A model generated the notes under the pieces. It saw nothing but the letters and a program-made list of their open reading frames with translations. It had not been told where the DNA came from and made no database searches. 64,000 nucleotides of DNA from a virus (Duplodnaviria; Caudoviricetes), in the IMG/VR virus record IMGVR_UViG_3300020037_003306, positions 14,690 through 78,689 of that record, one strand, 5' to 3'. Of this stretch, positions 16,636 to 29,556 are shown in pieces (positions within the stretch are counted from its first letter, which is position 1; the number at the start of each line of letters is the position of its first letter). Both the position numbers and the translations under genes were made by a program.

Positions 16636-16665
16636 AGTAATATTAGGATTAAAAACTCATTATTG

Positions 16666-16697
16666 CAAATTTATGGCTGTTTTTGTTCAATTTGCAA
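16666..16697 (-). promoter_or_regulatory. Bacteroidota housekeeping-sigma-type promoter
   Basis: Minus strand reads TTG-21 nt-TAAATTTG, matching the TTG/-33 and TAnnTTTG/-7 consensus, 30 nt upstream of ATG 16635. Confidence 0.6.
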
Positions 16698-16815
16698 GCT
16701 GGGTTCTCTAAATGAAAAAATACAGGTATTGATTATCAATGAGTTATGAAGGTTTTATGACTATATCTTATGTAATGGTCAGAAGCAATTTAGTACAGGC
16801 GAAAATACCGTAATA

Positions 16816-17247
16816 TTAAGCCTCAAACTTTTGTGTAAGACTACTTTTATACGTTTTATCAAATAAAACTTGATTGAAAGTACTAATAATTTGATACTTA
16901 CGAATACCATTAGCTTTCATTTCAATAGAAATTGTAGTATATAGAGTACTTTTAAGTGTACCATATAAAGCACTTTTAAATACAATTGTAATTCCTTTTG
17001 AACTTTGAGTATAAGATTCAAGTTGTTCAATTTCATCACGCAAACTATTATCCATACCTTCCAATACTCCTTCGATAATAGAAAGATTAGTAGAATGTAT
17101 TTGACTACCATAATCATAAATATCAGATTTACGAGTAAGCCTTTTTCGCAGACTTTCACTAATAGGTAATTTATACCATTTAGCTTTAGGCACAGGAATG
17201 CCTTTTTTCCTAGGTGTTTTTGCACCAATGATTTTAGTTATTTTCAT
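16816..17247 (-). CDS. Hypothetical basic protein
   Basis: 143-aa ORF. Confidence 0.6.
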   Translation of the reverse strand: MKITKIIGAKTPRKKGIPVPKAKWYKLPISESLRKRLTRKSDIYDYGSQIHSTNLSIIEGVLEGMDNSLRDEIEQLESYTQSSKGITIVFKSALYGTLKSTLYTTISIEMKANGIRKYQIISTFNQVLFDKTYKSSLTQKFEA

Positions 17248-17263
17248 TTGTCAATGAGTTTTA
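17241..17263. repeat. 23-bp direct repeat copy 1 (TTTTCATTTGTCAATGAGTTTTA)
   Basis: Identical copy at 17589-17611; each spans a KTH-stop/ATG junction. Confidence 0.9.
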
Positions 17264-17595
17264 CCAGTTAATTTAAAGATTTTATATGTAGAAGGATTGC
17301 TAATAATAAATTCATAAACAAATGTAATAATATCAAATTTAGAAATAAATTTATTATGATTAAAACCTATTCTAAGTTCTTGAATTTCAAGGGTTTTATT
17401 TATTTCTAAAATGATTTTATGTTTATTAGCTTTAGTAATTTTTATATCAGAAAATACATCTATATATGTAAATGAATGTAATACTTCATTAATAGTTTCG
17501 TCAGAAAGTAAAATACCAAATTTACTTTGAATGTGATTAGAAACTTTAGTTAGTATTATATCAGCAATTTCAGGTAAACAGTTACGGTTTTTCAT
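17251..17595 (-). CDS. Hypothetical protein, tandem paralog A
   Basis: MKNRNCLPEIADII...FIISNPSTYKIFKLTGKTH; aligns end to end with 17599..17931. Confidence 0.7.
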   Translation of the reverse strand: MKNRNCLPEIADIILTKVSNHIQSKFGILLSDETINEVLHSFTYIDVFSDIKITKANKHKIILEINKTLEIQELRIGFNHNKFISKFDIITFVYEFIISNPSTYKIFKLTGKTH

Positions 17596-17611
17596 TTGTC
17601 AATGAGTTTTA
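17589..17611. repeat. 23-bp direct repeat copy 2
   Basis: Identical to 17241-17263. Confidence 0.9.
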
Positions 17612-17931
17612 AGAGTGAGTTTATAAATTTCATAAACAGAAGGATTTGCAATGATATAATCATAAATAGTTTTAATAATATCAATATTAGAAGTATATTC
17701 TCCATTAGTAATGGTAGAAGGTAATTCTTTTATTTTATTAAGATTATTTACTTGAGTTAATACTTTAGCTTTTAAATGAAGAATATCAGTTTCGTCCATG
17801 TAAATAAAAGATGCTAAAATACTTACTATTGTATCATTAAAAATAACTAAATTATGATGTTCACGGATTGATAAATCAATTTCAGTAATTACAATTCCAG
17901 CGATTTCTTTTAAACAATTTTGATTTTTCAT
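17599..17931 (-). CDS. Hypothetical protein, tandem paralog B
   Basis: Start at ATG 17931: MKNQNCLKEIAGIV...YIIANPSVYEIYKLTLKTH. Confidence 0.7.
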   Translation of the reverse strand: MKNQNCLKEIAGIVITEIDLSIREHHNLVIFNDTIVSILASFIYMDETDILHLKAKVLTQVNNLNKIKELPSTITNGEYTSNIDIIKTIYDYIIANPSVYEIYKLTLKTH

Positions 17932-17941
17932 TTGATTTAGA

Positions 17942-18340
17942 TTAGTAAGGATACCAAATAATATATTCAGCTCCATTTGTAATACCTTTGTCAAGGTCGG
18001 TTGGAAGAAATATTATTTGAGTGTTGAGAAATTTGAAAATAGATTCGTTAGGTTGCATTTCACGAAGATAGAAACCAAAGCCTTTAATTGAATAAATTTG
18101 AGGATTATCAACTTTAGTTTTAAAGTTATTGATATGCCAAATTTTACCGTAATCATTGAGAGCAACAGGTCCGACTCCTTTAAGAGGTTGTTGCATTCTG
18201 TGAAGGTAATCAAGTTCTGCGAATGTATTTTGATTAGTTGTGATACATTCAAGAATTTCTACAATTTCACTAAAATTAATTTTAGTTTCTGTATTTAATT
18301 GTTGCATGATATTTTGACTAAGATGATTTATTGTTGTCAT
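17942..18340 (-). CDS. Hypothetical protein
   Basis: 132-aa ORF. Confidence 0.6.
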   Translation of the reverse strand: MTTINHLSQNIMQQLNTETKINFSEIVEILECITTNQNTFAELDYLHRMQQPLKGVGPVALNDYGKIWHINNFKTKVDNPQIYSIKGFGFYLREMQPNESIFKFLNTQIIFLPTDLDKGITNGAEYIIWYPY

Positions 18341-18352
18341 GGTTGTATTTGC

Positions 18353-18880
18353 TTATGTAGTGATTTCAATAGGTTGGATAAATTCTTGTTCAACAAGGAA
18401 ATTGTAAAGTTTGATTATTAATCGACTGTGAAAGAAAGCTGCACTGTATTGACCAAGATTTTTATTATTTATATCGTCAATAGTAGTTTGCATTTCAGCT
18501 TTTGTTAATTGAACTGTAATAGTTGTATAAGAAGGTTCAATCAAGGTTATTTCGAGAGGGTCATTAGTTTCAACTTTAATTTGTAATTGTTCAAGTGTAA
18601 CCCACATTTTACAATTATCACGATGAGGAGATTTAAAAGTAAAATGAAGATTATCGTTAGTTTGAGGTTCAAATGTATGTGAAAGGATATACTCTTTCAT
18701 TTTCATTGAAGCGATTTGAAGACTAGGTTGATTGTGTTGAATAGTTGTTTGTAATTGTTTGAGTGTATCGGGATTATTTGTTAGGTAATCGAGTGTACCT
18801 TTAACAATTTTAGTATCTCTATCCTCAATAAAACCGTGTTCGCTAATTATATTGTTAGTAATTGTTTCCTTTATTGTCAT
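18353..18880 (-). CDS. Hypothetical protein
   Basis: 175-aa ORF. Confidence 0.6.
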   Translation of the reverse strand: MTIKETITNNIISEHGFIEDRDTKIVKGTLDYLTNNPDTLKQLQTTIQHNQPSLQIASMKMKEYILSHTFEPQTNDNLHFTFKSPHRDNCKMWVTLEQLQIKVETNDPLEITLIEPSYTTITVQLTKAEMQTTIDDINNKNLGQYSAAFFHSRLIIKLYNFLVEQEFIQPIEITT

Positions 18881-18904
18881 GGCTTGTTGTATGTTTTGAA
18901 ATTG

Positions 18905-19405
18905 TTAAAAAGAAGCTTGCATTATAATATTACTAAGTTTATGTAAACTGTAATCAGGAGGTTTAATGCGAAAATCATGCTTAGTCTTTTTGTGAAGTTT
19001 GCTATAAAGAGCGAGGATAAATTGAGTAGTAATGAAATCTTTAAGGAAATTTACTATGTTCAATTGATTAAGATTTACTCGATTAACTTCACAAAACTTG
19101 TCAAGATATTCTATAAATGGAACACGATAATTATCGTTATTTGTTTCAATGAAATGAACTACACTGATTTGAAAATGTAAATCTTTTAGTTCATCAATAT
19201 CCATTATATAATCGCTATTAAGACCGTTAATAAGAATAACATAATGTAAATGTTTGTTGTTATTAAGGAATTGACTAAGGCGTTTATTTTGTTTATAAGG
19301 ATATGGACATGGATTGATGTAACGATTATCACGTCCAAATGGATTGATTTTAATATCGTTAGGATATTCTATTTTGTGATTATTATGCTCGGCTTTTAGA
19401 TACAT
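18905..19405 (-). CDS. Hypothetical protein
   Basis: 166-aa ORF. Confidence 0.6.
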   Translation of the reverse strand: MYLKAEHNNHKIEYPNDIKINPFGRDNRYINPCPYPYKQNKRLSQFLNNNKHLHYVILINGLNSDYIMDIDELKDLHFQISVVHFIETNNDNYRVPFIEYLDKFCEVNRVNLNQLNIVNFLKDFITTQFILALYSKLHKKTKHDFRIKPPDYSLHKLSNIIMQASF

Positions 19406-19602
19406 GGTTGTATGTTTTGAATTGGTTTGTAAGATTGTGTTGTATGTTTAAGGTGTATAAGGTGTATATTGATGGGTAATTTTAGACCTTTAGGAGTAGT
19501 AGGAGAAATGGGAACAAGGTGGATAAAAGGGAAAAGGTTTATATTTATGGGGAAGTTGATGTGTAAGATTGTATATGAGGATTAGGAGGAAGTGGGTATA
19601 GT
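19404..19602. other. Compositionally extreme tract (C-free on +, G-free on the leftward sense strand)
   Basis: Only 3 C (19487, 19488, 19515) in 199 nt of the plus strand. Confidence 0.9.
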
Positions 19603-19622
19603 CAACGCCATACACTCCCACC

Positions 19623-19940
19623 TCAAACACCATATTCTTTCACAATATCAACTTTCATAATATTAACATCTTCTTTCCTAATCAAACCTTTCAAATCAAG
19701 TATGGTAACTTCACACTCTATTGTAAAAGGTCTAAAATCGACAGCAAGCACTTCAATTTTATTCTTAACAAGCATCTTCAAAAGTTGTTCAACAGTCCAA
19801 CCACTATTACCGTACCTTTTAACCATTTCTTTAATGAACCTTTCACCATCACGAACAGCAGAACCATAAGTTTTAAATAATTCAGCTCTAACAATAGTAA
19901 CATAATCAGCTTGTGTAACATTACAATATAGATTTAGCAT
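19623..19940 (-). CDS. Hypothetical protein
   Basis: 105-aa ORF. Confidence 0.6.
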   Translation of the reverse strand: MLNLYCNVTQADYVTIVRAELFKTYGSAVRDGERFIKEMVKRYGNSGWTVEQLLKMLVKNKIEVLAVDFRPFTIECEVTILDLKGLIRKEDVNIMKVDIVKEYGV

Positions 19941-20057
19941 AACATTAGTTTTAGTTTTTGATTTAATATTGTTTCAAATTTCAAATTTCGATTGTTCTTT
20001 AGTATAATTGTCCTTTAGGCTTTGATTATACATAGTATTACCGTTATTAGCAAGGTA

Positions 20058-20180
20058 TTACGTTACAAAGATAATAAATATTATGGACATTGCGAACATG
20101 ACGACTGTTAAATGTTTATAAAATGTTAGTAGTATTATATTTGTTGCTATCATTGCGAGCATGACGAACATTACAGACAT
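20058..20180 (-). CDS. Small two-TM membrane peptide (40 aa, below ORF-track cutoff)
   Basis: Hand translation MSVMFVMLAMIATNIILLTFYKHLTVVMFAMSIIFIIFVT*. Confidence 0.45.
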   Translation of the reverse strand: MSVMFVMLAMIATNIILLTFYKHLTVVMFAMSIIFIIFVT

Positions 20181-20279
20181 TTATCAACATTATTATTACT
20201 ATAATCATCAACGGTTGTAGCTGCCTAGCATAATTGACAACAAGCGGAGCATTTATTGCTTGCAATATTTCAGTTGCTA

Positions 20280-20298
20280 GTTTGACCGTAGGTCAAAC
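20280..20298. repeat. 8-bp hairpin with cGTAg triloop
   Basis: GTTTGACC-GTA-GGTCAAAC. Confidence 0.8.
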
Positions 20299-20312
20299 CT
20301 TAGCAGGTGGTT
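20293..20312 (-). promoter_or_regulatory. Conserved 20-nt motif copy 1 (putative phage promoter/regulatory site)
   Basis: Plus strand TCAAACCTTAGCAGGTGGTT; near-identical copies at 21233 and 22489. Confidence 0.6.
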
Positions 20313-20332
20313 CAAGTTTATGGTATTTTGTA

Positions 20333-20386
20333 GCTTAATTACCAAAGGTATATTGCCTTTCAGCAATATACCTTTGGTAATTAAGC
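20333..20386. repeat. Perfect 24-bp inverted repeat
   Basis: GCTTAATTACCAAAGGTATATTGC-CTTTCA-GCAATATACCTTTGGTAATTAAGC. Confidence 0.95.
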
Positions 20387-20574
20387 GGTATATTAAGAAC
20401 TCGGTTAATGTAGCATTTATGGTTAAGATTAAAGGGGCAATTATGGTTATACGCAACGCCTGCAACAAACACACCAAGTTGTCCTATTGTATCCAATTGG
20501 GCAGTAATTTTATTATGTAGTTGGGCAGACAATTACTTGGGTTTATCATCAAGAGTTTCAGTAAGCCGATTACC

Positions 20575-20606
20575 AAAAATCCCGCACCGCTCCTAAGAGC
20601 GGCACG
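20575..20606 (-). terminator. Intrinsic terminator of 20625..21191
   Basis: Minus strand CGTGCCGCTC-TTAG-GAGCGGTGCG followed by GGATTTTT. Confidence 0.65.
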
Positions 20607-20624
20607 AAATTCACGATATATATC

Positions 20625-21191
20625 TTACTCAAGGTCTTCATCTTCAGTTGTATCAACAACAACTTTTGGAGTTTCAACTTTTGGAGAAGGAGAGCCTTTT
20701 CTACGACCTTTTCTCGCTTCAGCAAGTTCACGTAAACCTTGCTCACGGTTTAAATCCGCAACATAAGCTTTAGCGTCTTCGCCAAGTACAAGTTCAAAAG
20801 ATAAAGTATCAGTTCTCCAATGAGCGGTAGTATGATACATTAAACCGTCATCGCTAGAAGGGTCTTCAACTTGCTCTCCTGTTTTGAAATCAATAACAGG
20901 TGCGCCTTCTTCAACCCAAACTGCATTTACGCTCAATTTGCTATCATCAAATGAAGCACTAATTGCGTCCGCAAGAATATTGACATTGGTAGCACGCAAG
21001 TTTTGAGCAAAATTGTTAAGATGGTCTTCATTGAATTGAAATACACCTTTAGGATTGCACTCGACACCTTCTTCGCATTTTACAGTAAGTTTGCCATTTT
21101 TATTGATACGAGTATCAATAGATTTGACAACAAAAGTAAAAGTAGTAGGTTTTTTAGCAACTGGTTTAGTTTTTTTAGCTGGATTAGCCAT
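20625..21191 (-). CDS. Hypothetical protein, possible nucleic-acid-binding (basic N-tail, beta-rich core, acidic C-tail)
   Basis: 188 aa; MANPAKKTKPVAKKP...TTEDEDLE; has its own upstream motif and downstream terminator. Confidence 0.65.
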   Translation of the reverse strand: MANPAKKTKPVAKKPTTFTFVVKSIDTRINKNGKLTVKCEEGVECNPKGVFQFNEDHLNNFAQNLRATNVNILADAISASFDDSKLSVNAVWVEEGAPVIDFKTGEQVEDPSSDDGLMYHTTAHWRTDTLSFELVLGEDAKAYVADLNREQGLRELAEARKGRRKGSPSPKVETPKVVVDTTEDEDLE

Positions 21192-21232
21192 AATGTTTGA
21201 AAATTTAAAAATTTAAAAATATTGTTTATTAA

Positions 21233-21252
21233 TCAAAACTTCGCAGGTGGTT
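21233..21252 (-). promoter_or_regulatory. Conserved 20-nt motif copy 2
   Basis: Plus strand TCAAAACTTCGCAGGTGGTT, 42 nt from ATG 21191. Confidence 0.6.
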
Positions 21253-21326
21253 AATTGTTTATGGTTAAAAGTATCAGTAAGGAAATATAAACTCTTGCTG
21301 TCAATGAAGACAACAAGAGTTTAATA

Positions 21327-21944
21327 TTAAAATGCAACAGACTCTTCATAGTTATGAAGTTGTACAGCAGTTGCTACATTTGCAGTAATATTTTCTGCGT
21401 GTACAATATCTTCAATATGTACAGTTTCAAGTTCTATTGTACGAGTTTTATAGTTTCGTACTTTAAAACTGACATTAATGCCATTATCAACGTAATTAAC
21501 AGTACCTACAACTATTTTATTTAAGTAGTGTAAAGATACATAATCAGCTTGTTCAAGTTGACCCCAAATTTTATCTCCGTCAATGAAAGTATCTTGTTCA
21601 GCAGGAAATGGAACATGATTATCCTTTTTTCGTAAGTCAATAGTATCCAAAGGAGTTTCAATTTTAACCCAACCATTGATAGTACTATACAAATCGCCAA
21701 GAGCTTGAGCATTGTCTTGAATTGGGTCAATGATAGTTTCAACAAGTTTAACAAAATAATCAGTATTAATATTGTTAGATAGCGTAAAACTATTACCAAG
21801 TAATATCTGTTTAATACATTCATCAACACTGCGAATCCCTGTAACTTCTTTACTTTCAAATGGAGTAAGAAACAATTTGAGAAGTGCTTTTACAACAACA
21901 TCAACACTCAATTGATAAGTAAACGTTTTATTATAATTTTTCAT
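21327..21944 (-). CDS. Hypothetical protein
   Basis: 205-aa ORF. Confidence 0.65.
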   Translation of the reverse strand: MKNYNKTFTYQLSVDVVVKALLKLFLTPFESKEVTGIRSVDECIKQILLGNSFTLSNNINTDYFVKLVETIIDPIQDNAQALGDLYSTINGWVKIETPLDTIDLRKKDNHVPFPAEQDTFIDGDKIWGQLEQADYVSLHYLNKIVVGTVNYVDNGINVSFKVRNYKTRTIELETVHIEDIVHAENITANVATAVQLHNYEESVAF

Positions 21945-22031
21945 AACAACTAGATTTTATAAATGAATAATAAGATTAGTAAGAATATCCTCTCTAGTAC
22001 ATCTACGGTGTACATTATCGAGAGGATTATA

Positions 22032-22454
22032 TTATTGAAGAATAGTAATATGTTTTGGAGCATATATAATATACTCCGTTTGAACAGTTGCTTCTTGATT
22101 ATCAACAATAATAGTTTTTACAGTTGGCGTATCAAGATGTACATTGCGAAATGCACTATCAAATGTAACAATTGTTGAAAGTGTAGAATTGCTCTCAAGT
22201 ACAGAAATAATTCTATTAGATTTATTATGAGTTACTGTAACAGTACACTCGATGATAATTCTATTAGATTTAGTTTCAACAACTTCAACTCTTCCTTTCA
22301 ATGAATGAGAAAGAGTTTCAACATTGTCAAGATTATAAGTTTTGGCGAATGTAGTTGTAGATTGAGCTTTCAAAAACATAGGTATCGAAGTAAACACCAT
22401 TACAATTATCATAATGATAATCAATTTTAAATTAGAAGGTTTTGTAACTAGCAT
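22032..22454 (-). CDS. Putative exported protein (signal peptide)
   Basis: Start at ATG 22454: MLVTKPSNLKLIIIMIIVMVFTSIPMFLKA|QSTTTFAKTY..., followed by a beta-rich mature domain. Confidence 0.6.
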   Translation of the reverse strand: MLVTKPSNLKLIIIMIIVMVFTSIPMFLKAQSTTTFAKTYNLDNVETLSHSLKGRVEVVETKSNRIIIECTVTVTHNKSNRIISVLESNSTLSTIVTFDSAFRNVHLDTPTVKTIIVDNQEATVQTEYIIYAPKHITILQ

Positions 22455-22488
22455 GATTATAAGTATTAAGAATAAGAGAATTTGTATA

Positions 22489-22508
22489 TCAAAACTTAGC
22501 AGGTGGTT
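22489..22508 (-). promoter_or_regulatory. Conserved 20-nt motif copy 3
   Basis: Plus strand TCAAAACTTAGCAGGTGGTT, 35 nt from ATG 22454. Confidence 0.6.
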
Positions 22509-22710
22509 AATGATTGTGTTCATTGTGGAATGTAATGGAACAATGAATACAATCAATATGTTTATGGTCTTCGTTCCTATTGAGTCCTACATCAACTGTA
22601 TAATATAGATTGTCATTTCGATTATGTGTAGTTCTATATCCTAGTTTGTCGTTTCAATTCTATATAATTGTACTGTTATGTTTGGATATGTTATGCACAT
22701 TAAGCGTATA

Positions 22711-22901
22711 ACTATCAAGCAGCACATCACTCCTCAAAGTAATACCATTATCTTTATGAAAGTTTAAAAGTTTATAAGCTTGAGCAATGGAAAATAATTA
22801 TTTTTAATTATTTTCTTGCGAAAGATTATATACTTTTAAACTTTCATAAAGATACCCGGGGTATTCAATTTACTTTGAGGAGGGAGGGGGTGATTGATAG
22901 T
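22711..22901. repeat. ~190-bp quasi-palindrome at the transcription strand switch (candidate origin / bidirectional control element)
   Basis: Nested inverted arms: 22730-22742/22870-22882 (13 bp perfect), 22749-22771/22832-22854 (23 bp perfect), 22790-22800/22805-22815 (11 bp perfect, TTTT loop), with partial pairing between them. Confidence 0.9.
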
Positions 22902-23099
22902 ATCACACCCACGTACCCACACTTTCTACAACTTCAACATCTTCACATTTACACACGCTAACAACTCCTATCTTATACAAATACACATTCATACCTTCTA
23001 CTTCTCAATCATTTCCACCTTCACCATCATATACACCTTAACCTTCACAACCTTCCTCAACACCTTCAACATACCTCAAATTCCATACCTTATATATAT
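22901..23099. other. G-free tract on the rightward sense strand
   Basis: Only 2 G (22913, 22957) in 199 nt; no G from 22958 to 23099. Confidence 0.9.
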
Positions 23100-23240
23100 G
23101 GTATAGCGTGGCGGAATTGCCTACCCAGTTAAACGCTATCACATTCAAATCATTCAAACAACCAAACATACGCTAAACGCTACGATACAGCCAATGCCCA
23201 TTTAAACAACACATTTAAACCTTAATAGTAAACTTAATCC

Positions 23241-23368
23241 TAACTTTGAGTATAAAGTATAGAAACCAACAAATAAGACTTATTTAAAGAAAATTACAAG
23301 CCAATGAAACTATTTTATAAAATAAACACTTATAAATTTGTAAGTGTAGTTAAGATGTTATATACTTG
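23241..23368 (+). promoter_or_regulatory. Candidate Bacteroidota-type promoters for the rightward arm
   Basis: Perfect TAnnTTTG matches at 23241-23248 (TAACTTTG) and 23333-23340 (TAAATTTG); also TTTG(23337)-20 nt-TATACTTG(23361). Confidence 0.45.
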
Positions 23369-23402
23369 TATAGTAATTGAACAACAACTAAAACAATTCA
23401 AA

Positions 23403-23819
23403 ATGACTATTGAAGACAAAGCTGCTCTTGAAGTTGAACTTCTTAAAGCTACACTTAGTAATACAATTATATCTTGGAATGAGAAATGCGCTAAGTTATC
23501 TTATGTTGCTAGATTTGGATATGCTATTGATTTTGAAGATAGTGCTTCTCGTAAATCAGATGATGCTCCTGGAATTATCACTGGTATAATTGATGTTACT
23601 TCTTTCGTACAAACTGCGGTACTAACTATATTTAGTCAAGGCGTTGGTTCTCAAAAACAAAAAGTTCTATTTAGTTATCGTCATAGTTTTAGTCCTTCTG
23701 ATGTTATGGAAGGTTTTACAGATTACGATTTCAATAAAGCTATACTTCTTCTTTTGAAAGAAGTTTTCATTGAAGCATTTGGAACATTTCTTATCACGAT
23801 TGATAAACTTGTTAAATAG
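23403..23819 (+). CDS. Hypothetical protein
   Basis: Start placed at ATG 23403 (MTIEDK), downstream of the promoter-like elements; 138 aa. Confidence 0.6.
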   Translation: MTIEDKAALEVELLKATLSNTIISWNEKCAKLSYVARFGYAIDFEDSASRKSDDAPGIITGIIDVTSFVQTAVLTIFSQGVGSQKQKVLFSYRHSFSPSDVMEGFTDYDFNKAILLLLKEVFIEAFGTFLITIDKLVK

Positions 23820-24041
23820 ATGCTTATAGATAATACAATTAAAACGGTTCTTGAAAAGATTCAATCTCAAGTTAAGAAAGAATTTGATGTTGACCTTACA
23901 CAAGAAGAATTACTTGAAATAGTGGATAGCCAATTTAAAGTTATCCCTGATGCAATTGAAAATAAAGATACAGTTAAACTTGATAAACTTGGTAAGTTCC
24001 TCATTAAAGAAATGAGAACTAAAGTTTTAAAAGATAAATAA
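23820..24041 (+). CDS. HU/IHF-like DNA-binding protein
   Basis: 73 aa; LLEIVDSQFKVIPDAIENKDTVKLDKLGKF matches the HU/IHF helix plus VxLxxFGxF pattern; DNA-binding arm truncated. Confidence 0.65.
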   Translation: MLIDNTIKTVLEKIQSQVKKEFDVDLTQEELLEIVDSQFKVIPDAIENKDTVKLDKLGKFLIKEMRTKVLKDK

Positions 24042-24314
24042 GGTAGTGTTCCTTAATTAAGAACGGCAAGTATTACACATCTAGTTAATAACGGGGATTG
24101 TGTTTAATATCTTAACCGAACAAAAATATAACTTAATGGGGATTGTGTTAATCAATTTATTCACCACACAAAACATTCTAATGATGTTTATAAAACCTTT
24201 AAGCTTTATGATGGCGATTGTGGTAAACAACAATCCTTCATTAATTAAGATAACGCCTAGTTGCTTGCTTGCCTAGTTGTTGCCCGTCATGAATAGGTTC
24301 GTGGCGGGCTTTTT
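24042..24314 (+). ncRNA. Candidate structured non-coding RNA
   Basis: 288-nt ORF-free gap with three GG(G/C)GATTGTG(T/G)T repeats, long-range complementarity and a terminator at the 3' end. Confidence 0.35.
24282..24314 (+). terminator. Intrinsic terminator
   Basis: GCCCGTCATGAA-TAGG-TTCGTGGCGGGC-TTTTT; the two G-U pairs define the plus strand. Confidence 0.8.
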
Positions 24315-24329
24315 AATTCTCATACTATT

Positions 24330-24653
24330 ATGGCTACTAAAAAAGGAAGAACTCTAAAGATTATCTTTAAAACTTTCGACCGTGAAGGTATTACTGAAAA
24401 ACATAACGGTTTACTTAAACTTAAAATTAAAGCTGTTTATATTTACAATAATATTGCAAAGACTAAAGGTGCTGTTAAATTAACTGCTCCTGAAATCGCT
24501 AGTATCATTTATAATATACTAGGTGTTAATTGTAATCTTGAATTAATTTCAATTAGACGTATGAGAATATGTGGAGGTGGAGAAGAAGGAGAGCTTAGAG
24601 AACTCTCTCAATATTTAACTGAGAAAGAAAAAACTATCATTCGCCTGTACTAA
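24330..24653 (+). CDS. Hypothetical basic protein
   Basis: 107-aa ORF. Confidence 0.6.
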   Translation: MATKKGRTLKIIFKTFDREGITEKHNGLLKLKIKAVYIYNNIAKTKGAVKLTAPEIASIIYNILGVNCNLELISIRRMRICGGGEEGELRELSQYLTEKEKTIIRLY

Positions 24654-24659
24654 ATTGCT

Positions 24660-25361
24660 ATGGAACAACAAACCACTAATGAATATTCTGAGATTTTAAA
24701 AGTTATTAACATTGTTAATGGGCTTGCTCAATTCGATAGAAAAGAACTTGAAGCTTATCCAGAGTTCAATAAAATACTTTCTCGTGTACATCCTTCTAAA
24801 GGAGATGCTGATGGTAGAAAGAAATACCTAAATAATAAAGAACTTCTTTATATTAAATTCATGTCTAATTTTGCTGGACAACATCGTGGATTTCACGGTG
24901 ATGCAAAACATGAGAAAGCTAAAATGGATGCACAGCTTCCTGATGAATGGAAACCTGATGACCATGTTCAAGCTGCAATTGCCAAGGCGATTGAAATACA
25001 AATCTATTATACTCCTACCGTCCGTCTTCTTAATGCAATTGAAAAAGGTATGATGCTTTCTGCGGAAGCTGCCGAGAGTCAACTTGACCAAGTATATACT
25101 GCAATTAAAACAGGTAAGCGATTAACTGATGAATTGAAAGATACTAAAGATTTAAGTGAAGCTCAAAAAACTATTGATGCCATGTTGAACGTAAGCGATT
25201 TGTTACAGGCGAGGGTTAATGGTTTCATGAAGAGTGCTGGTGAAGTTCCTAAAGTTCTTAAACAATTGAAAGAACTTCAAAGTCAAGTTATTCAAGAACA
25301 AAATGGCGAACGTTCTTTACGTGGTGGTCATAAAAAAGGTAATCGTGAAGACCCAAGATAA
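24660..25361 (+). CDS. Conserved crAss-like protein, possible terminase small subunit
   Basis: KELLYIKFMS...AKMDAQLPDEWKPDDHVQAAI...TPTVRLL followed by helical coiled coil; resembles the helical protein upstream of terL in crAss-like phages (inference). Confidence 0.5.
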   Translation: MEQQTTNEYSEILKVINIVNGLAQFDRKELEAYPEFNKILSRVHPSKGDADGRKKYLNNKELLYIKFMSNFAGQHRGFHGDAKHEKAKMDAQLPDEWKPDDHVQAAIAKAIEIQIYYTPTVRLLNAIEKGMMLSAEAAESQLDQVYTAIKTGKRLTDELKDTKDLSEAQKTIDAMLNVSDLLQARVNGFMKSAGEVPKVLKQLKELQSQVIQEQNGERSLRGGHKKGNREDPR

Positions 25362-25362
25362 T

Positions 25363-25533
25363 ATGAAAAAGAAAATTAAAGTTAAAATTGATACTACTAT
25401 TGCAATTAAAGATGCTACACGTTGTTTTAGTTTAGTATGGAATCCTGATGTTGAGGTTAAAATTAAACCTACTACTAAAGGTGGAATAGTAGAACAAGAT
25501 GAACCTAATTTATATGACCATTTAATTGAATAG
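25363..25533 (+). CDS. Small hypothetical protein
   Basis: Start at ATG 25363 (MKKKIKVKID), 56 aa. Confidence 0.45.
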   Translation: MKKKIKVKIDTTIAIKDATRCFSLVWNPDVEVKIKPTTKGGIVEQDEPNLYDHLIE

Positions 25534-25536
25534 AAT

Positions 25537-25725
25537 ATGCCTATTGGAAATACAAATAAAGTTGATAAAGAATCTTGGTATTCTGTTAATGCTACTGCTG
25601 TTGGAGAAGCTCTGCATTTACAAATGCAAAACGCTGTTATGAACGGCAGTCCTTTAACTAATGATAAAATAAATGCTAGTGGTATATACGATTGTATAAT
25701 TATTAATGTAAAAGAACTTGATTAA
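25537..25725 (+). CDS. Small hypothetical protein
   Basis: 62-aa ORF. Confidence 0.5.
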   Translation: MPIGNTNKVDKESWYSVNATAVGEALHLQMQNAVMNGSPLTNDKINASGIYDCIIINVKELD

Positions 25726-25728
25726 ATT

Positions 25729-26283
25729 ATGGAAAATTATTATGTTTCTGGTCTTCTTAAAGACCCTAAAGCTAGAAAATACATTGATGCTATTCCTAAA
25801 TATTATATTCCATCTATTGAGGAGTTTCATGTTGGATTTGAATGTGAAGAAATGGGATTTGGTACTATTTATGCAAATAAAATTATTAATGAGAATGATA
25901 ACTTGCAAACTCTCCGTGCTTTAGGTTCTCGTATTAGAGTAAAACATCTTGACCGTAAAGATATTGAATCTTTTGGATTTATTTGGGATAATGATGCTTA
26001 TGAAGCAGAAGATATTCATTATAGTAATTTTGATATTGAAGATGAGCAACACGTTATAATTCGTGATTTTTATAGATTTCCTTTTAAAAAGAAAGATAGA
26101 ACTAGGGAGAATGTAAAAACTAAATGTTATGGTCTTGAGCATCATTATAAAACTAATACTTATACGTTAATTAGTATTGAAAATTATTCTGATACAAAAA
26201 TAGTTTTTAAAAACTTTACAATTAAAAATAAATCTGAATTTAAAAGACTGCTTATACAAGGTGGTTTTTATCAAACTAAATAA
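25729..26283 (+). CDS. Hypothetical protein (Bacteroidota-phage YYxPxIEEFHVGFE family)
   Basis: YYIPSIEEFHVGFECE and LDRKDIESFGF segments. Confidence 0.6.
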   Translation: MENYYVSGLLKDPKARKYIDAIPKYYIPSIEEFHVGFECEEMGFGTIYANKIINENDNLQTLRALGSRIRVKHLDRKDIESFGFIWDNDAYEAEDIHYSNFDIEDEQHVIIRDFYRFPFKKKDRTRENVKTKCYGLEHHYKTNTYTLISIENYSDTKIVFKNFTIKNKSEFKRLLIQGGFYQTK

Positions 26284-26292
26284 ATTGAAACT

Positions 26293-26517
26293 ATGCAAGC
26301 TAAAATGGAACAATGGGAAGTAGATTTACGTGCTAAACTTCAAGCTGAATTGCCTGACGGTGCTTACGAGTTTGGAGGCGGAGGAGTTAAAGGTTTCACC
26401 GGAAAAGGTGGATATATTGAATTTGAAGTTGCTATGCGAAAAGAAGTTAGGGGGTTTACACGTCCTAATCTTGAGGATAATATTGTTAATAAATTACTCA
26501 AACTTAAAACTAAATAA
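26293..26517 (+). CDS. Small hypothetical protein
   Basis: 74 aa; Gly-rich GGGGVKGFTGKGG loop. Confidence 0.55.
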   Translation: MQAKMEQWEVDLRAKLQAELPDGAYEFGGGGVKGFTGKGGYIEFEVAMRKEVRGFTRPNLEDNIVNKLLKLKTK

Positions 26518-26778
26518 ATGAGATTCCTTATTCATATTCTTATTATTAATCCTATATTTTGGATTCTTAGTATCTTTACTATGGGAATGATTTATACTCC
26601 TACTGATTATAGATGGTATAGAAAATGGCATGGCGGTAAGTGGTATAATTATTCTCCCCGTATGTATCCTTATATGAGTTTTTGGACGCAAGATAAAGAT
26701 AGTCTTGCTGAGCATGAGATTCTATGTGAAGAAGAAGAATACCCTAATCCTTTTCGTGAGGATATATTAGATAACTAA
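26518..26778 (+). CDS. Small membrane protein
   Basis: N-terminal TM, W/Y-rich remainder. Confidence 0.5.
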   Translation: MRFLIHILIINPIFWILSIFTMGMIYTPTDYRWYRKWHGGKWYNYSPRMYPYMSFWTQDKDSLAEHEILCEEEEYPNPFREDILDN

Positions 26779-26793
26779 TTAAATGCTATTTGT

Positions 26794-27174
26794 ATGACTT
26801 TAGAACTTGCCTTGTATATAGGATTACTATTACATATTCTTGGTGATTATATTACACAAAATAATTGGATGGCGCAAAATAAAACTAAAAATAACTTTGT
26901 TGCTATGCTTCATGCTATGATATATAGTATTCCTTTTTATTTCCTTTTAGGTGTAACTCCTGTTTCTTCTATGATATTTCATACTCATGCTATTATTGAT
27001 AGGTTTGATTTAGCTCAATACTGGATTAAATTAGTTAATAATGGTTGGGGAGAATCTAATTACGGTTATGGAGATAATATGCCTCCTGTTTTAGCTATTA
27101 CTTTGAAAATAATTATTGATAACTTTTTCCATGTTGCAATTAATAGCGTTGTGATTTGGTATCACTTTAGTTAA
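26794..27174 (+). CDS. DUF3307-like membrane protein
   Basis: LLHILGDYITQ..WMAQNK, LHAMIY, HTHAIID, IIDNFFH: His/Asp pattern of DUF3307. Confidence 0.75.
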   Translation: MTLELALYIGLLLHILGDYITQNNWMAQNKTKNNFVAMLHAMIYSIPFYFLLGVTPVSSMIFHTHAIIDRFDLAQYWIKLVNNGWGESNYGYGDNMPPVLAITLKIIIDNFFHVAINSVVIWYHFS

Positions 27175-27187
27175 ACTATTAAATATA

Positions 27188-27823
27188 ATGCCAAAAGTAA
27201 TTTTCTTAGATGCTGGTCATGGAGGTATTAATCCTGCTATTGGTATGTACACTACTGCTCCTAGTAAATTGTTTGACCATGAGAAAGGTAACTTTCATAA
27301 TGGTAGTACTTTTTATGAAGGTGTCAAAAACCGTAAAATTTGTAAAATGCTTCAGCGTAAATTGGTTGAAGCTGGAGTAACTGTTATTCCTGTTTACCAT
27401 GATTATCTTGATACATCTTTGCAAGCTAGAGTTGATATTGCTAATGCTTATCATAAGAATATCCAAGAGGGTATTTACATTAGCGAGCATTCAAATGCTA
27501 CTCCTGAACATAAAGCTCGTGGGTTTCAAGTTTGGACCTCGCCTGGTCAGAATAGTGCTGACGGTTATGCGGATACTCTTATTGAAATTCTTACTCGGTC
27601 TGAAGTTCGTCCTGAAGCTAAGATAAAGATTCTTACTGATAAGACTGATGGAGATGGAGATTATGAAGCTCGTTTCTTTGTTCTTATGCAAACTGCTATG
27701 CCTGCTGTATTACTTGAAAATTTATTCTTTGATAATTACAGTGATGCTACGCTTCTTATGATGGATACGTATATTGAAACTTATACGGATTTACTGGTGA
27801 TGTGGATTAAAATGATTATCTAA
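27188..27823 (+). CDS. N-acetylmuramoyl-L-alanine amidase (Amidase_3) endolysin
   Basis: IFLDAGHGG, YEGVKN, SLQARVDIAN, ISEHSNA, MPAVLLENLFFDN. Confidence 0.9.
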   Translation: MPKVIFLDAGHGGINPAIGMYTTAPSKLFDHEKGNFHNGSTFYEGVKNRKICKMLQRKLVEAGVTVIPVYHDYLDTSLQARVDIANAYHKNIQEGIYISEHSNATPEHKARGFQVWTSPGQNSADGYADTLIEILTRSEVRPEAKIKILTDKTDGDGDYEARFFVLMQTAMPAVLLENLFFDNYSDATLLMMDTYIETYTDLLVMWIKMII

Positions 27824-27851
27824 TTTTTATAACCTTGTTAAAATTTTTCTT

Positions 27852-28481
27852 ATGAAAAAATTAATTGCACTTACTCTAGCTGTTAGACAGTTGGAAAATA
27901 GTATGAATGTTTGTGTGGCTTTTAAACAACCTTGTGAAGCTGATATTGTAAATGTAGTACCTTTCAAAAGTGCTGTGCTTACTGTTGCTTATAATAAATT
28001 GCGTGAGGCTAGAATGCTATGTGGTGATTTGCTTCGTCTTGTTGGTGTGGAAAATCCCTACAACAATGCTTATACGGGCGAATTGAAAGATGAGAATCCT
28101 GCTTATCTTGAGAATGGCGAATTGAAGAATGTTGATTGGAAAGCTGTTTGTTCTCCTTCTATTACTCCTGATGCTTTTGAGCAAGATGAAGATGGGAAAT
28201 TTAACGGTTCTTCTGCTATGAAAAAAGAATTTTCAGAAGAAAGTATTTGTATTGGCTATTTGAAAACTCAACTTGGTAGTATTGATAAAGGTCTTTTTTA
28301 TGAACTTGCAAGTATGAAAGAAGAAATTTATAATGCTATTGTAGCTAAGTATTCTTCTGAAAATAAACTTATGCCAACTTCAATTGATGTTGAAATGAGT
28401 GTTTACTTTCTTGGTGCTGCTACTGCTCTTAAACTTGCAAATTGCAATTTAGGTTTGCGGTTTGGGGAACTTGTGAAGTAA
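27852..28481 (+). CDS. Hypothetical protein
   Basis: 209-aa ORF. Confidence 0.6.
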   Translation: MKKLIALTLAVRQLENSMNVCVAFKQPCEADIVNVVPFKSAVLTVAYNKLREARMLCGDLLRLVGVENPYNNAYTGELKDENPAYLENGELKNVDWKAVCSPSITPDAFEQDEDGKFNGSSAMKKEFSEESICIGYLKTQLGSIDKGLFYELASMKEEIYNAIVAKYSSENKLMPTSIDVEMSVYFLGAATALKLANCNLGLRFGELVK

Positions 28482-28510
28482 TAAAGAAATTTTACCGTAT
28501 AACATCAAAT

Positions 28511-28546
28511 AGGCGTTAATTATCTTGCATAATTAACGCCTTATTT
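28511..28546 (+). terminator. Intrinsic terminator / hairpin
   Basis: Perfect 12-bp stem AGGCGTTAATTA/TAATTAACGCCT followed by TATTT. Confidence 0.7.
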
Positions 28547-28575
28547 ATATCTTGGCACTATAATACTATATTGAC

Positions 28576-29550
28576 ATGAAACAGGTAAAAATAACGTTTA
28601 ACGAGGAATTGCATAAATATACTGATGAGGAAGGTAGTGTGTACACTAGTGTTACCCAACTTATAGGTAAAGTAACTCCTGAATATCCAGCTAAGTTTTG
28701 GGCTATGTATAGAGCTTTAGACCAAACTGGTTATAAGCTTGTTCCTGATATTCCGAATGATACTATTATAGTAGCTGGTGTAAGATATTCAATTACTGAA
28801 TTGTATGCAGGGATTGTAAAAACTCTTAAAACTCCTGCGGAAATTAAGGCAGATTGGAAAGCTATAACTGACCGTTCATTAGCTAGAGGTAATAAAACTC
28901 ATAATTATCTTGAAGATTGTGTTAATGCCTTTTATAAGAAAGGTAATAATGATTTTCAATTGAGTGATATTAATGAAACAAGTTTTAGGTTTAAAATTGT
29001 TAGTGAGGAACAACTTCATAATTCTCCTTTGCAATACAGTCATAAGCTTGTTTACGATACCTTAGTTAAAATGATTACAAGTGGTTATACTATCTATGCA
29101 GAGAAACGTGTTTATAGTTATGAACATAAAGTGAGTGGAACTATTGATATACTTGCGGTAAGAGGTAGAGAGTTTTGGATTCTTGATTGGAAGACTAATA
29201 AAGATGAATTGAAATTTCTTCCTGGTTACTATAAAAAAGCTTGGAATGGTGATAGAAGTGATAAAGTTAAAACTGATAAATGGGTTGCCACTGATGAGAG
29301 ATTTGAATATCCTCTTCACAATCTTCATCTTAGTAAAGGTATGGGTTATGTATTACAACTTTCTTTGTATGCGTATCTGTGCGAAATGTGGGGATTGCAA
29401 TGTAAAGGTCTTATACTTTTTCATTTGAGAGAAGATGATGAGAAAGTTTATCCTCCACGTCCTTATACTCTTGAATATAAAAAACATGAAGTTGGGTTGC
29501 TGCTTGAGTGGCAACTTGCTAAACTTCGTATTCGTGAATCTTATAAATAA
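28576..29550 (+). CDS. PD-(D/E)XK nuclease (lambda-exo/Cas4-like)
   Basis: YTSVTQLI, RGNKTHNYLE, YAEKRVY, GTIDIL, ILDWKTNK, YVLQLSLYAY. Confidence 0.85.
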   Translation: MKQVKITFNEELHKYTDEEGSVYTSVTQLIGKVTPEYPAKFWAMYRALDQTGYKLVPDIPNDTIIVAGVRYSITELYAGIVKTLKTPAEIKADWKAITDRSLARGNKTHNYLEDCVNAFYKKGNNDFQLSDINETSFRFKIVSEEQLHNSPLQYSHKLVYDTLVKMITSGYTIYAEKRVYSYEHKVSGTIDILAVRGREFWILDWKTNKDELKFLPGYYKKAWNGDRSDKVKTDKWVATDERFEYPLHNLHLSKGMGYVLQLSLYAYLCEMWGLQCKGLILFHLREDDEKVYPPRPYTLEYKKHEVGLLLEWQLAKLRIRESYK

Positions 29551-29556
29551 AATGTT

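What the first reader, a model, noticed from the sequence alone, without database searches (positions are those of the whole stretch)
22711..22901. ~190-bp nested quasi-palindrome exactly at the genome's strand switch
Seen: a central fold of 22749-22854 made of a perfect 23-bp outer stem (TATCTTTATGAAAGTTTAAAAGT / ACTTTTAAACTTTCATAAAGATA), a mostly paired middle and a perfect 11-bp inner stem (GAAAATAATTA / TAATTATTTTC) closing a TTTT loop. Outside this is a perfect 13-bp pair CTCCTCAAAGTAA (22730-42) / TTACTTTGAGGAG (22870-82). Both outward-reading arms continue TTACTTTGAGGAG..GTGAT..TGATAGT. Embedded in the right arm are the palindrome ATACCC-G-GGGTAT (22852-64) and a GGGGGTGAT/ATCACACCC hairpin. 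All genes to the left are minus strand and all to the right are plus strand. Inference: a two-fold symmetric cruciform acting as a bidirectional replication origin, as a pair of divergent ssDNA/hairpin promoters for the virion RNA polymerase, or as a telomere-like/terminus junction. Established: hairpin-telomere resolution sites (N15 telRL) are long palindromes, and supercoiling-extruded hairpins are the promoters of the N4 virion RNAP.
Basis: partly seen in the sequence, partly recalled or inferred. Interest (0 to 1): 0.82.

Follow-up and report, generated by a model that had tools for sequence, protein, structure and literature searches.

The report
Conserved palindrome at phage gene-divergence point
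A real ~190-bp DNA palindrome, kept by evolution, sits in the gene-free gap where the early/replication genes and the late genes of an uncultured crAss-like phage point away from each other. It is most likely a DNA control element such as the replication origin, but its function has not been shown.

Summary
Window 22711-22901 is a nested imperfect palindrome: DNA fold -61 kcal/mol (z -15), self-complement score 22 SD above shuffles, and the strongest fold in the surrounding 15 kb. It lies in the gene-free gap between the leftward early/replication arm and the rightward HU-like/lysis/structural arm of a 78.7-kb, deeply divergent crAss-like phage.

It is not an assembly artefact.
- An independently assembled relative carries it at 97-98% identity, while flanking non-coding DNA is 72-80% identical with 48- and 135-bp indels.
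- Two more distant relatives have a 142-145-bp palindrome at the same place, with a different interior, a homologous right arm and co-varying terminal stems.
- Still more distant relatives keep only a short hairpin plus the right arm's G-run motif.

There is no protelomerase, the element is not an N4-type hairpin promoter, and its boxes are not a recurrent promoter. The cumulative GC-skew minimum lies 8.5 kb away.

Best reading (~0.4): a cruciform-capable, dyad-symmetric DNA element acting in cis, most likely the core of the replication origin. Main rival (~0.27): phage-specific outward promoters, or the start of a G-less non-coding transcript. Function is unproven. This scan has flagged comparable junction palindromes in other phage genomes.

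The parts
22711..22901 (.). Whole nested quasi-palindrome (191 bp), single copy in the genome
   Evidence: It is 96.9-97.9% identical in relative L005 while flanking non-coding DNA is 72-80% identical.
22711..22742 (.). Left outer arm. It contains the leftward-facing copy of the perfect 13-bp box (22730-22742) and the 8-bp terminal stem (22711-22718).
   Evidence: The terminal stem co-varies with its partner in L007 and L011.
22870..22901 (.). Right outer arm. It contains the rightward-facing 13-bp box (22870-22882), a G-run (22886-22890) and the terminal stem (22894-22901).
22749..22854 (.). Central fold: 39-nt arms with a perfect 23-bp outer stem
   Evidence: It is 98.1% identical in L005. 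The only internal substitution (22831) falls on a position that was already mismatched.
22790..22815 (.). A+T-rich centre: perfect 11-bp stem with a 4-nt loop, the likely nucleation point for cruciform extrusion or melting
   Evidence: I11. The 50-bp window starting at 22790 is among the 0.25% least stable duplex windows of the genome, but is not the minimum.
22855..22915 (+). Asymmetric, sequence-conserved right-arm motif: first G-run, a T-rich spacer, second G-run, then a -10-like hexamer followed by a C/A-rich word. It is the oldest part of the element.
   Evidence: It aligns across window, L005, L007 and L011 and is recognisable in L008 and L015. G5+ runs are rare in these genomes and concentrate here.
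22489..22568 (-). Neighbouring element, not part of the palindrome: copy 1 of a thrice-repeated early-promoter-like motif, split by a 51-nt hairpin, in front of the first leftward gene
   Evidence: (I3). It is conserved in L005, L007, L011 and L015, with the hairpin stem sequence changed but pairing kept.
22902..23099 (+). Neighbouring G-free tract that begins where the right arm ends
   Evidence: Its length and polarity vary between relatives.
23320..23343 (+). Conserved Bacteroidota-type (TAnnTTTG-like) promoter candidate for the rightward operon, about 430 nt right of the palindrome
   Evidence: A related word is present in L005, L007, L011, L013 and L015.
23820..24041 (+). HU/IHF-like DNA-binding protein gene, second gene of the rightward arm. 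It is a candidate architectural partner, by inference only.
   Evidence: PF00216 at 1.2e-6; phrog_379. The same gene holds the same position in L005, L008, L013 and L014. HU is also in the corresponding arm of crAss001.

Best explanation
The palindrome is a selected, single-copy DNA element acting in cis within the divergent control region. It is most likely the core of the phage's replication origin.

Proposed mechanism:
- The A+T-rich centre, with its perfect 11-bp hairpin nucleus, melts or extrudes as a cruciform under negative supercoiling.
- The inverted boxes on either side place two copies of an origin-binding or priming factor head to head, so that synthesis leaves in both directions.
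- The strand-specific G-run motif on the right arm acts in factor binding or primer formation.
- The HU-like protein encoded next door may stabilise the bent or four-way DNA.

Shown: the element exists, is single-copy, sits between the two outward promoter candidates, is an island of conservation, and keeps its dyad symmetry while the interior sequence is replaced.

Inferred: action at the DNA level, cruciform formation, origin function, and any role for HU.
For: (1) The palindrome is real and extreme: z -15.5, z 22, and the top fold in 15 kb.

(2) It is under selection. It is 96.9-97.9% identical between the window and the independently assembled L005. The adjoining non-coding DNA is 80.5% and 72.1% identical with 48- and 135-bp indels.

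(3) Symmetry is kept while sequence is not. L007 and L011, whose neighbouring protein is 48-50% identical, have 142-145-bp palindromes (z 16.5 and 19.4) at the homologous place. Their interior cannot be aligned to the window's. Between L007 and L011 the palindrome is 73-90% identical inside DNA that is otherwise 42-44% identical.

(4) The 8-12-bp terminal stem shows two double (compensatory) changes among three lineages and no broken pair.

(5) It is single-copy and its boxes are unique in the genome.

(6) It lies between, not downstream of, the leftward early-promoter-like motif and the conserved rightward host-type promoter candidate. An ordinary mRNA leader is therefore unlikely.

(7) The centre is among the least stable 0.25-0.8% of duplex windows.

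(8) There is precedent in the order.
- The homologous junction of Carjivirus communis has been proposed as an origin from OriFinder, skew and nanopore coverage (bioRxiv 10.1101/2024.03.20.585998). It holds a 137-bp A+T-rich segment bounded by perfect 17-bp inverted repeats.
- Phage cr11_1 has a 135-bp palindrome (z 6.4) in its junction.

(9) From established knowledge: long palindromes between divergent transcription units are the origin cores of HSV-1 (oriL) and SV40. Long palindromes are also selected against in bacteria unless they are functional.
Against: - The cumulative GC-skew minimum is at window 14349, 8.5 kb away. Skew here follows sense-strand composition, so it gives no support.
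- No initiator gene adjoins the element. No RepL was found. The flanking genes have no family, or look like a beta-rich Bacteroidota protein.
- I recognised no iteron array that is shared across relatives (one search was a negative trial).
- The centre is not the genome's stability minimum.
- The right arm is better conserved than the left (85.5-95% against 73%). The plus strand also folds 7-11 kcal/mol better than the minus strand in all four lineages. Both point to a strand-specific, possibly transcriptional, role.
- The box at 22874 recurs in front of the second, leftward G-free tract at about 19627.
- Covariation statistics are weak. L007 against L011 shows 2 compensated pairs and 9 broken pairs, and 114 of 500 shuffles do as well.
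- Template switching within quasi-palindromes can produce apparent compensation without selection.
- Relatives at 39% neighbour identity or less, and crAss001, lack a long palindrome. The long dyad is therefore not essential to the wider family.
Confidence: 0.38

Rival explanations
1. Transcription-control element. The two outward-facing arms are phage-specific promoters or regulator sites. In particular, the conserved right-arm G-run motif would be the start signal of a non-coding, G-less transcript (22902-23099 and beyond). This would be analogous to the abundant early non-coding RNAs transcribed from long intergenic regions of phage phi14:2. The left arm would be a mirror copy that drives or blocks leftward transcription.
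For: - The right arm and its flanking word are the most conserved part of the element, and the only part kept in distant relatives L008 and L015.
- The same box followed by a similar C/A-rich word precedes both G-free tracts, in opposite orientations (22874 on plus, 19627 on minus).
- A -35-like hexamer, a 17-nt spacer and a -10-like hexamer can be read on the right arm of the window.
- Phage phi14:2 makes highly abundant early non-coding RNAs from long intergenic regions. Its early polymerase needs single-stranded or denatured DNA in vitro.
- The plus strand folds better than the minus strand.
Against: - The boxes are not a recurrent promoter motif. The 13-mer occurs only in the palindrome.
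- The consensus promoter scan does not call the arms.
- In L007 and L011 the -35-like word sits only 13 nt from the -10-like hexamer, so the spacing is not conserved.
- The G-free tract is absent in L007 and is C-free, the opposite polarity, in L011.
- This reading does not explain why 140-190 bp of dyad symmetry is maintained.
Confidence: 0.27
2. RNA-level hairpin. The region is transcribed, most likely rightward, and the long stem-loop acts in the RNA as a processing site (RNase III type), a 5' stabiliser or an attenuator.
For: The plus-strand RNA fold is very stable (-84 kcal/mol) and is consistently more stable than the minus strand, with a few G-U pairs. Pairing is maintained across lineages.
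Against: - Mismatches in the outer arms are purine-purine, not wobble.
- Both promoter candidates point away from the palindrome and lie outside it.
- No Rfam family reaches threshold. Only generic hairpin matches to miRNA precursor models appear, far below gathering score.
Confidence: 0.1
3. Packaging or terminus-related site. The palindrome lies at or next to the physical ends (direct terminal repeat, pac site or concatemer junction), and acts in concatemer processing by hairpin formation. Both arms would then be transcribed inward from the ends of the virion DNA.
For: - The longest non-coding region of a compact genome is a usual place for such sites.
- The contig has no terminal repeats and is cut inside an ORF, so the true ends are unknown.
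- Linear forms with terminal repeats have been reported for Carjivirus communis.
Against: Three independent contigs of 76-83 kb and the IMG/VR contig all run through the site without a break. No repeat of the junction occurs elsewhere in the contig. No read-level data could be obtained.
Confidence: 0.08
4. Neutral or selfish palindrome (a MITE-like insertion or a self-propagating inverted duplication), or an assembly fold-back artefact.
For: Quasi-palindromes can homogenise themselves by intrastrand template switching. The left arm looks like a decaying mirror copy of the right arm.
Against: - Artefact: the palindrome is imperfect, internal and flanked by unique syntenic genes. It is reproduced in independent assemblies from other samples and by other assemblers.
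- Mobile element: single copy, no target-site duplication at 22710/22902, and no match in viral, metagenome or genome collections outside the lineage.
- Neutrality: it is far better conserved than its flanks.
Confidence: 0.05
5. Hairpin-telomere resolution site of the N15 telRL type.
For: Only the general resemblance: a long internal palindrome.
Against: No protelomerase (PF16684) match anywhere in the 78.7-kb contig, even at E <= 1. The central 4 nt are not self-complementary, and the arms are 84-90% complementary rather than perfect.
Confidence: 0.01

Closest known systems
Proposed origins in the gp87/RepL divergent junction of Carjivirus communis (prototypic crAssphage; Schmidtke et al., bioRxiv 10.1101/2024.03.20.585998)
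   Same: It occupies the same genomic place. This is the gene-free gap between the arm carrying small genes, lysis genes, terminase, portal and capsid, and the replication arm. That gap also holds an A+T-rich segment of about 137 bp bounded by perfect 17-bp inverted repeats. Phage cr11_1 of the same subfamily has a related inverted repeat plus a 135-bp palindrome.
   Different: - A RepL initiator gene adjoins the junction there. None is present here.
- The interior of the C. communis element is not palindromic (z about 1.7).
- There is no sequence similarity between the two.
- The origin there is a prediction from OriFinder, skew and coverage, not a mapped origin.
- crAss001 has no palindrome in its junction.
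HSV-1 oriL (144-bp palindrome between the divergent UL29 and UL30 genes) and the SV40 core origin between the divergent early and late units (own knowledge, not tested here)
   Same: Both have long dyad symmetry with an A+T-rich centre flanked by inverted recognition boxes. Both sit between divergently transcribed early/replication and other genes, and both are single-copy cis elements.
   Different: Those are eukaryotic viruses with dedicated origin-binding helicases (UL9, large T antigen), and no such gene is identified here. HSV oriL is a perfect palindrome, whereas this one is 84-90% complementary with asymmetric bulges.
RSF1010 oriV, with ssiA and ssiB priming signals on opposite strands of a large inverted repeat (own knowledge, not tested here)
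   Same: Outward-facing, strand-specific signals are arranged as a palindrome, so that element-encoded primase and helicase could start synthesis in both directions. This phage encodes primase/helicase-like proteins.
   Different: No iterons or RepC-like initiator were found. No similarity to ssi hairpins was tested or seen.
Coliphage N4 virion-RNA-polymerase hairpin promoters
   Same: The idea that supercoiling extrudes a hairpin that a virion polymerase preferring single-stranded DNA recognises. The phi14:2 virion polymerase does need single-stranded or denatured DNA in vitro.
   Different: - N4 promoters are short hairpins (5-7-bp stem, 3-nt loop) present in several copies upstream of early genes.
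- This element is 191 bp and single-copy.
- The crAss polymerase is unrelated to N4's.
- A different thrice-repeated motif is the better early-promoter candidate here.
N15 telRL / protelomerase telomere resolution sites
   Same: A long internal palindrome in a phage genome.
   Different: No protelomerase gene, an imperfect dyad, and a centre that is not self-complementary.

Membership tests
Replication origin (bidirectional, dyad type) | Replication initiates at the site (marker frequency, nascent strands, autonomous replication) | not testable with these tools
Replication origin (bidirectional, dyad type) | The switch of cumulative strand-composition skew coincides with the site | tested here: not met
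   The global minimum is at window 14349 and only a local minimum lies at 23329. Skew tracks sense-strand composition.
Replication origin (bidirectional, dyad type) | An easily unwound A+T-rich element within or beside the dyad | tested here: inconclusive
   The centre is in the least stable 0.25-0.8% of 50-100-bp windows. Several coding regions at 16-18 kb are less stable.
Replication origin (bidirectional, dyad type) | An adjacent initiator gene and repeated initiator-binding sites | tested here: not met
   No RepL was found. The neighbours have no family or no DNA-binding fold. Only the two inverted 13-bp boxes are repeated. A candidate direct repeat was not enriched across relatives.
Replication origin (bidirectional, dyad type) | Positional conservation and purifying selection on the element in relatives | tested here: met
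N4-type hairpin promoter for a virion RNA polymerase | Short hairpin (5-7-bp stem, 3-nt loop) with conserved sequence | tested here: not met
   A 191-bp nested fold. The inner stem is 11 bp with a 4-nt loop.
N4-type hairpin promoter for a virion RNA polymerase | Several copies upstream of early genes | tested here: not met
   Single copy. A different motif occurs three times upstream of the leftward early genes.
N4-type hairpin promoter for a virion RNA polymerase | The genome encodes a virion RNA polymerase | tested here: inconclusive
   No PHROG or Pfam polymerase match was found, and no DxDxD catalytic word occurs in the three open stretches of 900 aa or more. The contig is cut inside the largest of them.
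Protelomerase telomere-resolution site (telRL) | Protelomerase gene in the genome | tested here: not met
   PF16684 search of the whole contig gave no candidate at E <= 1.
Protelomerase telomere-resolution site (telRL) | Perfect dyad through the centre | tested here: not met
   The 4-nt centre is not self-complementary and the arms are 84-90% complementary.
Assembly fold-back chimera | Perfect inverted duplication of adjacent sequence, not reproduced in independent assemblies | tested here: not met
   The arms are imperfect. The same element is present in a Logan contig from another run (L005) and, in diverged form, in two ENA assemblies.
MITE-like mobile element | Terminal inverted repeats with a target-site duplication, and multiple copies | tested here: not met
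   No duplication at the borders. Single copy. No hits in viral, metagenome or genome collections.
Crassvirales (genome context) | crAss-type capsid, portal and terminase, with two divergent gene arms | tested here: met
   phrog_11589, phrog_6547 and phrog_6681. The capsid protein is 34-38% identical to classified Crassvirales. PF23898 is present on relatives.

The most novel reading that the evidence does not exclude
The palindrome is a supercoil-extruded cruciform. Its unpaired bulge displays the deeply conserved G-run motif (22855-22869 and 22883-22890) as single-stranded DNA, giving the entry site for the ssDNA-dependent crAss-type virion RNA polymerase. The resulting G-rich-start, G-less transcript would also prime rightward DNA synthesis. 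That would make it a transcription-primed origin combining N4-like promoter logic with mitochondrial-CSBII/ColE1-like primer formation, and would explain why no linear consensus was found for crAss early promoters.
Probability: 0.08. Interest if true: 0.85.

Novelty: new member of a known kind. Interest (0 to 1): 0.42.

Why it matters
No replication origin, packaging site or early promoter has been mapped experimentally for any crAss-like phage. In this environmental lineage the element defines a compact, conserved, testable cis-acting candidate of 190 bp, with a separable ancient right-arm motif.

Together with the inverted-repeat elements in the same junction of the prototypic crAssphage and cr11_1, it suggests that dyad elements at the divergence point recur in the order but are not universal. 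A defined origin or control element would help in building replicons and reporter systems for these largely uncultured phages.

Tried and rejected
No read-level test of termini, coverage or expression was possible.
- Close relatives through the two flanking ORFs in IMG/VR: none found. The terminase search gave only two contigs that stop before the junction.
- Pattern scans for the 13-bp box pair and for the right-arm motif in viral, metagenome and genome collections: no hits. GenBank phages show no DNA match and no homologue of the 233-aa neighbour.
- Rfam: only sub-threshold generic hairpin matches.
- Reading the 13-bp box as an exact Bacteroidota -7 box: one spacer base short. Genuine matches to that motif lie elsewhere, at 23241 and 23333.
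- Sigma-70-type scan: the arms are not called.
- A 7-mer direct repeat that looked iteron-like in L007: not enriched across relatives.
- phi14:2 early non-coding region: no G-free tract or comparable element.
- Initiator search: RepL absent. Atlas look-ups of both flanking proteins gave no DNA-binding lead. The homologue search with the 140-aa leftward protein found nothing.
- Circular joining of the contig ends does not restore the giant ORF, so the contig is probably not quite complete.

Full report
OBSERVATION

- Outer arms 22711-22742 / 22870-22901: 32 nt, 84% complementary. They contain the perfect 13-bp pair at 22730-22742 / 22870-22882, which is also seen as the only two genomic copies of that word.
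- A central fold with 39-nt arms at 90% complementarity, whose outer 23 bp are perfect.
- A perfect 11-bp inner stem around a 4-nt loop.

As single-stranded DNA the 216-nt region folds at -61.1 kcal/mol against -14.3 +/- 3.0 for shuffles (z -15.5). A self reverse-complement alignment scores 22 SD above composition-matched shuffles. It is the best of 743 sliding folds over window 15001-30000.

All mismatches in the outer arms are purine-purine. Read outward, the two arms therefore carry the same box, an 11-nt spacer that differs, and the same 8-nt terminal word.

CONTEXT

The window is bases 14690-78689 of a 78,689-bp IMG/VR contig without terminal repeats.
- The left arm (minus strand) carries PolA, three helicase/primase-like genes and many small ORFs without family.
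- The right arm (plus strand) carries small ORFs, an HU-like gene, an amidase, then crAss-type terminase, portal and capsid.
- The capsid protein is only 34-38% identical to classified Crassvirales, so this is a deep, uncultured branch.

The palindrome lies in the gene-free gap between the first leftward gene (probable start 22454) and the first rightward gene. That gap also holds the following elements, from left to right.
- A thrice-repeated early-promoter-like motif, whose first copy is split by a 51-nt hairpin (22489-22568).
- A variable spacer.
- The palindrome.
- A 199-nt G-free tract.
- About 430 nt to the right, a conserved Bacteroidota-type promoter word (23320-23343).

That promoter word lies inside the ORF as called from 23304. 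The real start is therefore probably the ATG at 23355, as in relative L005.

The palindrome thus sits between two outward-pointing promoter candidates rather than in an ordinary leader.

NOT AN ARTEFACT, AND UNDER SELECTION

The protein encoded just to the right has one close homologue (92% identity), found on Logan contigs of 76-83 kb from another run.

That relative (L005) has the same gene order and the same palindrome. The 191 bp are 96.9-97.9% identical. The spacer to the left is 80.5% identical with a 48-bp deletion. The G-free tract to the right is 72.1% identical with a 135-bp insertion.

The one substitution inside the central fold hits a position that was already a mismatch. The other differences destroy the small 13-nt mini-palindrome at 22852-22864, which is therefore not a conserved feature.

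Homologues of the 233-aa protein two genes further right led to more distant junctions. L007 and L011 (ENA assemblies, neighbouring protein 48-50% identical) have 142- and 145-bp palindromes at the homologous place, with z 16.5 and 19.4 and DNA folds of z -8.0 and -7.4.
- Their interior cannot be aligned with the window's.
- Their right arm and the word just beyond it can be aligned.
- The terminal stems differ by two double changes among the three lineages, with no broken pair.

Between L007 and L011 the palindrome is an island of conservation: left arm 73%, centre 90%, right arm 85.5%, flanking word 95%. The surrounding DNA is 42-44% identical.

The formal covariation count between these two is weak: 2 compensated and 9 broken pairs, with 114 of 500 shuffles as good. 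The main argument is therefore maintenance of dyad symmetry across a turnover of sequence, not pair statistics.

LIMITS OF CONSERVATION

Junctions of relatives at 39% neighbour identity or less (L008/L010, L015, L016, L017) have no significant long palindrome (z <= 3.2).

L008 and L015 do keep a short hairpin followed, 34-38 nt later, by the right-arm motif with its G-runs.

Runs of five or more G are rare in these A+T-rich genomes and concentrate in the junction, on the rightward strand. Both runs in L005, all three in L011, the only one in L008 and both in L016 are there. The spacing is a fixed 29 nt in L005, L007 and L011.

The ancient element is therefore the strand-specific right-arm motif plus a hairpin. 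The long palindrome is an elaboration in one clade, in which a left arm mirrors the right arm.

Telomere site:
- There is no protelomerase match.
- The dyad is imperfect and its centre is not self-complementary.

N4-type promoters:
- The size and copy number are wrong, and the boxes are unique.
- I could not confirm a crAss-type polymerase motif in the long ORFs, one of which is cut by the contig end.
- According to the phi14:2 study, early transcripts of the virion polymerase showed no common upstream motif. Middle promoters were host-type and lay upstream of the IHF-like gene.

Origin:
- The cumulative GC skew has its global minimum at window 14349, 8.5 kb to the left, and only a local dip ending at 23329, caused by the G-free tract.
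- The early genes between 14.3 and 19.6 kb have a C-rich sense strand. Skew here reflects sense-strand composition and is uninformative.
- The centre of the palindrome is among the least stable 0.25-0.8% of duplex windows but is not the minimum.
- No initiator gene is evident.

EVIDENCE FOR A STRAND-SPECIFIC OR TRANSCRIPTIONAL SIDE

- The plus strand folds 7-11 kcal/mol better than the minus strand in all four lineages.
- The right arm is better conserved than the left.
- The box at 22874-22886 recurs, 15 of 17 identical, at about 19627 on the minus strand. There it is again followed some 25 nt later by a similar C/A-rich word and by the second, leftward G-free tract.
- The -35-like to -10-like spacing readable in the window is not kept in L007/L011.
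- The G-free tract itself is absent in L007 and of opposite polarity in L011.
- The consensus scan does not call the arms.

COMPARISON WITH KNOWN CRASSVIRALES

- The homologous junction of Carjivirus communis (gp87/RepL) holds a 137-bp A+T-rich segment bounded by perfect 17-bp inverted repeats. It has been proposed as an origin from OriFinder, skew and nanopore coverage.
- Phage cr11_1 has a related inverted repeat, a 135-bp A+T-rich palindrome (z 6.4) and, interestingly, two G-run words like those here followed by a G-poor stretch of about 400 nt.
- crAss001 has none of this in its 320-bp junction.

Dyad elements at the divergence point therefore recur in the order but are not universal.

VERDICT

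The element is real, selected and acts in cis. I cannot decide its function from sequence alone. My rough odds are:
- About 0.4 for a dyad-type origin core.
- About 0.27 for a phage-specific promoter or regulator pair tied to the G-less tracts.
- About 0.1 for an RNA hairpin.
- About 0.08 for a packaging or terminus role.
- About 0.05 for a neutral or selfish palindrome.

A combined, transcription-activated origin would reconcile most observations but is speculation.

Unverified notes from this scan on the same genome led me to the G-free tracts, the repeated early motif and the HU-like gene. Notes on other genomes show that similar junction palindromes have been flagged before as candidate origins.

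Noticed in passing
window 22489-22568, 21233-21264, 20293-20323 (minus strand); L007:2586-2700; L011:3530-3627; L015:510-580: A two-part motif occurs three times upstream of leftward early genes. In copy 1 the two parts are separated by a 51-nt hairpin. The motif is 92-100% conserved in relatives. The hairpin stem is only 60% identical between L007 and L011, yet stays 89-90% complementary in each. That makes a better covariation case than the big palindrome, and a candidate early (virion polymerase?) promoter.
   Followed up: partly
window 22902-23099; L005:9406-9740; L007:2936-3060; L011:3940-4060: The G-free tract right of the palindrome is highly plastic. It is 199 nt here and about 335 nt in L005 (135-bp insertion). 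It is absent in L007 and is replaced by a C-free tract of opposite polarity in L011. A conserved alternating T/A word followed by a short G-containing word marks its right end in the window, L005 and L011.
   Followed up: partly
window 19615-19627 (minus) and 22874-22886 (plus): The same 13-17-nt G-rich box, 15 of 17 identical, precedes both G-free tracts. The tracts face in opposite directions, 3.3 kb apart. The left copy overlaps the stop codon of gene 19623-19940.
   Followed up: partly
window 14349-19601: The early small genes on the minus strand have a C-rich sense strand, with positive GC skew on the plus strand. This is the opposite of every other gene block. The global cumulative GC-skew minimum (14349) therefore lies inside the leftward arm, not at the strand switch.
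   Followed up: partly
window 23304-23355: The ORF called from the ATG at 23304 reads through a promoter-like word that is conserved in five relatives. The true start is probably the ATG at 23355, which gives the 154-aa form found in L005.
   Followed up: partly
L022:2990-3035 and 3040-3450; L022:3899-4037; L020:7743-7879: Gut phage cr11_1 has two G-run words resembling those of the right arm here, followed by a G-poor stretch of about 400 nt. cr11_1 and the prototypic crAssphage share a GC-rich inverted repeat around about 100 bp, differing by a compensated change. Together these hint at deeply shared junction elements in Crassvirales.
   Followed up: no
contig ends (window 57879-63998 and genome 1-229): The contig is cut inside a >2,040-aa ORF. 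Joining the ends directly gives a stop after 3 codons, so some sequence is probably missing despite the 100% completeness estimate. No DxDxD polymerase word and no polymerase family match occur in any open stretch of 900 aa or more. The 1,719-aa ORF at genome 2388-7544 has a PD-(D/E)XK domain.
   Followed up: partly
window 20241-20400; L005:6541-6700: The second-strongest local DNA fold of the region (z -5.8) is the 24-bp perfect hairpin in the early intergenic gap. It is kept in L005, where it is the strongest fold.
   Followed up: no
window 22032-22454 (minus): The first leftward gene product (140 aa) resembles, by language-model features (0.94) and predicted structure (TM 0.72-0.76), small beta-rich hypothetical proteins of Bacteroidota related to DUF4097. 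This fits a Bacteroidota host.
   Followed up: no
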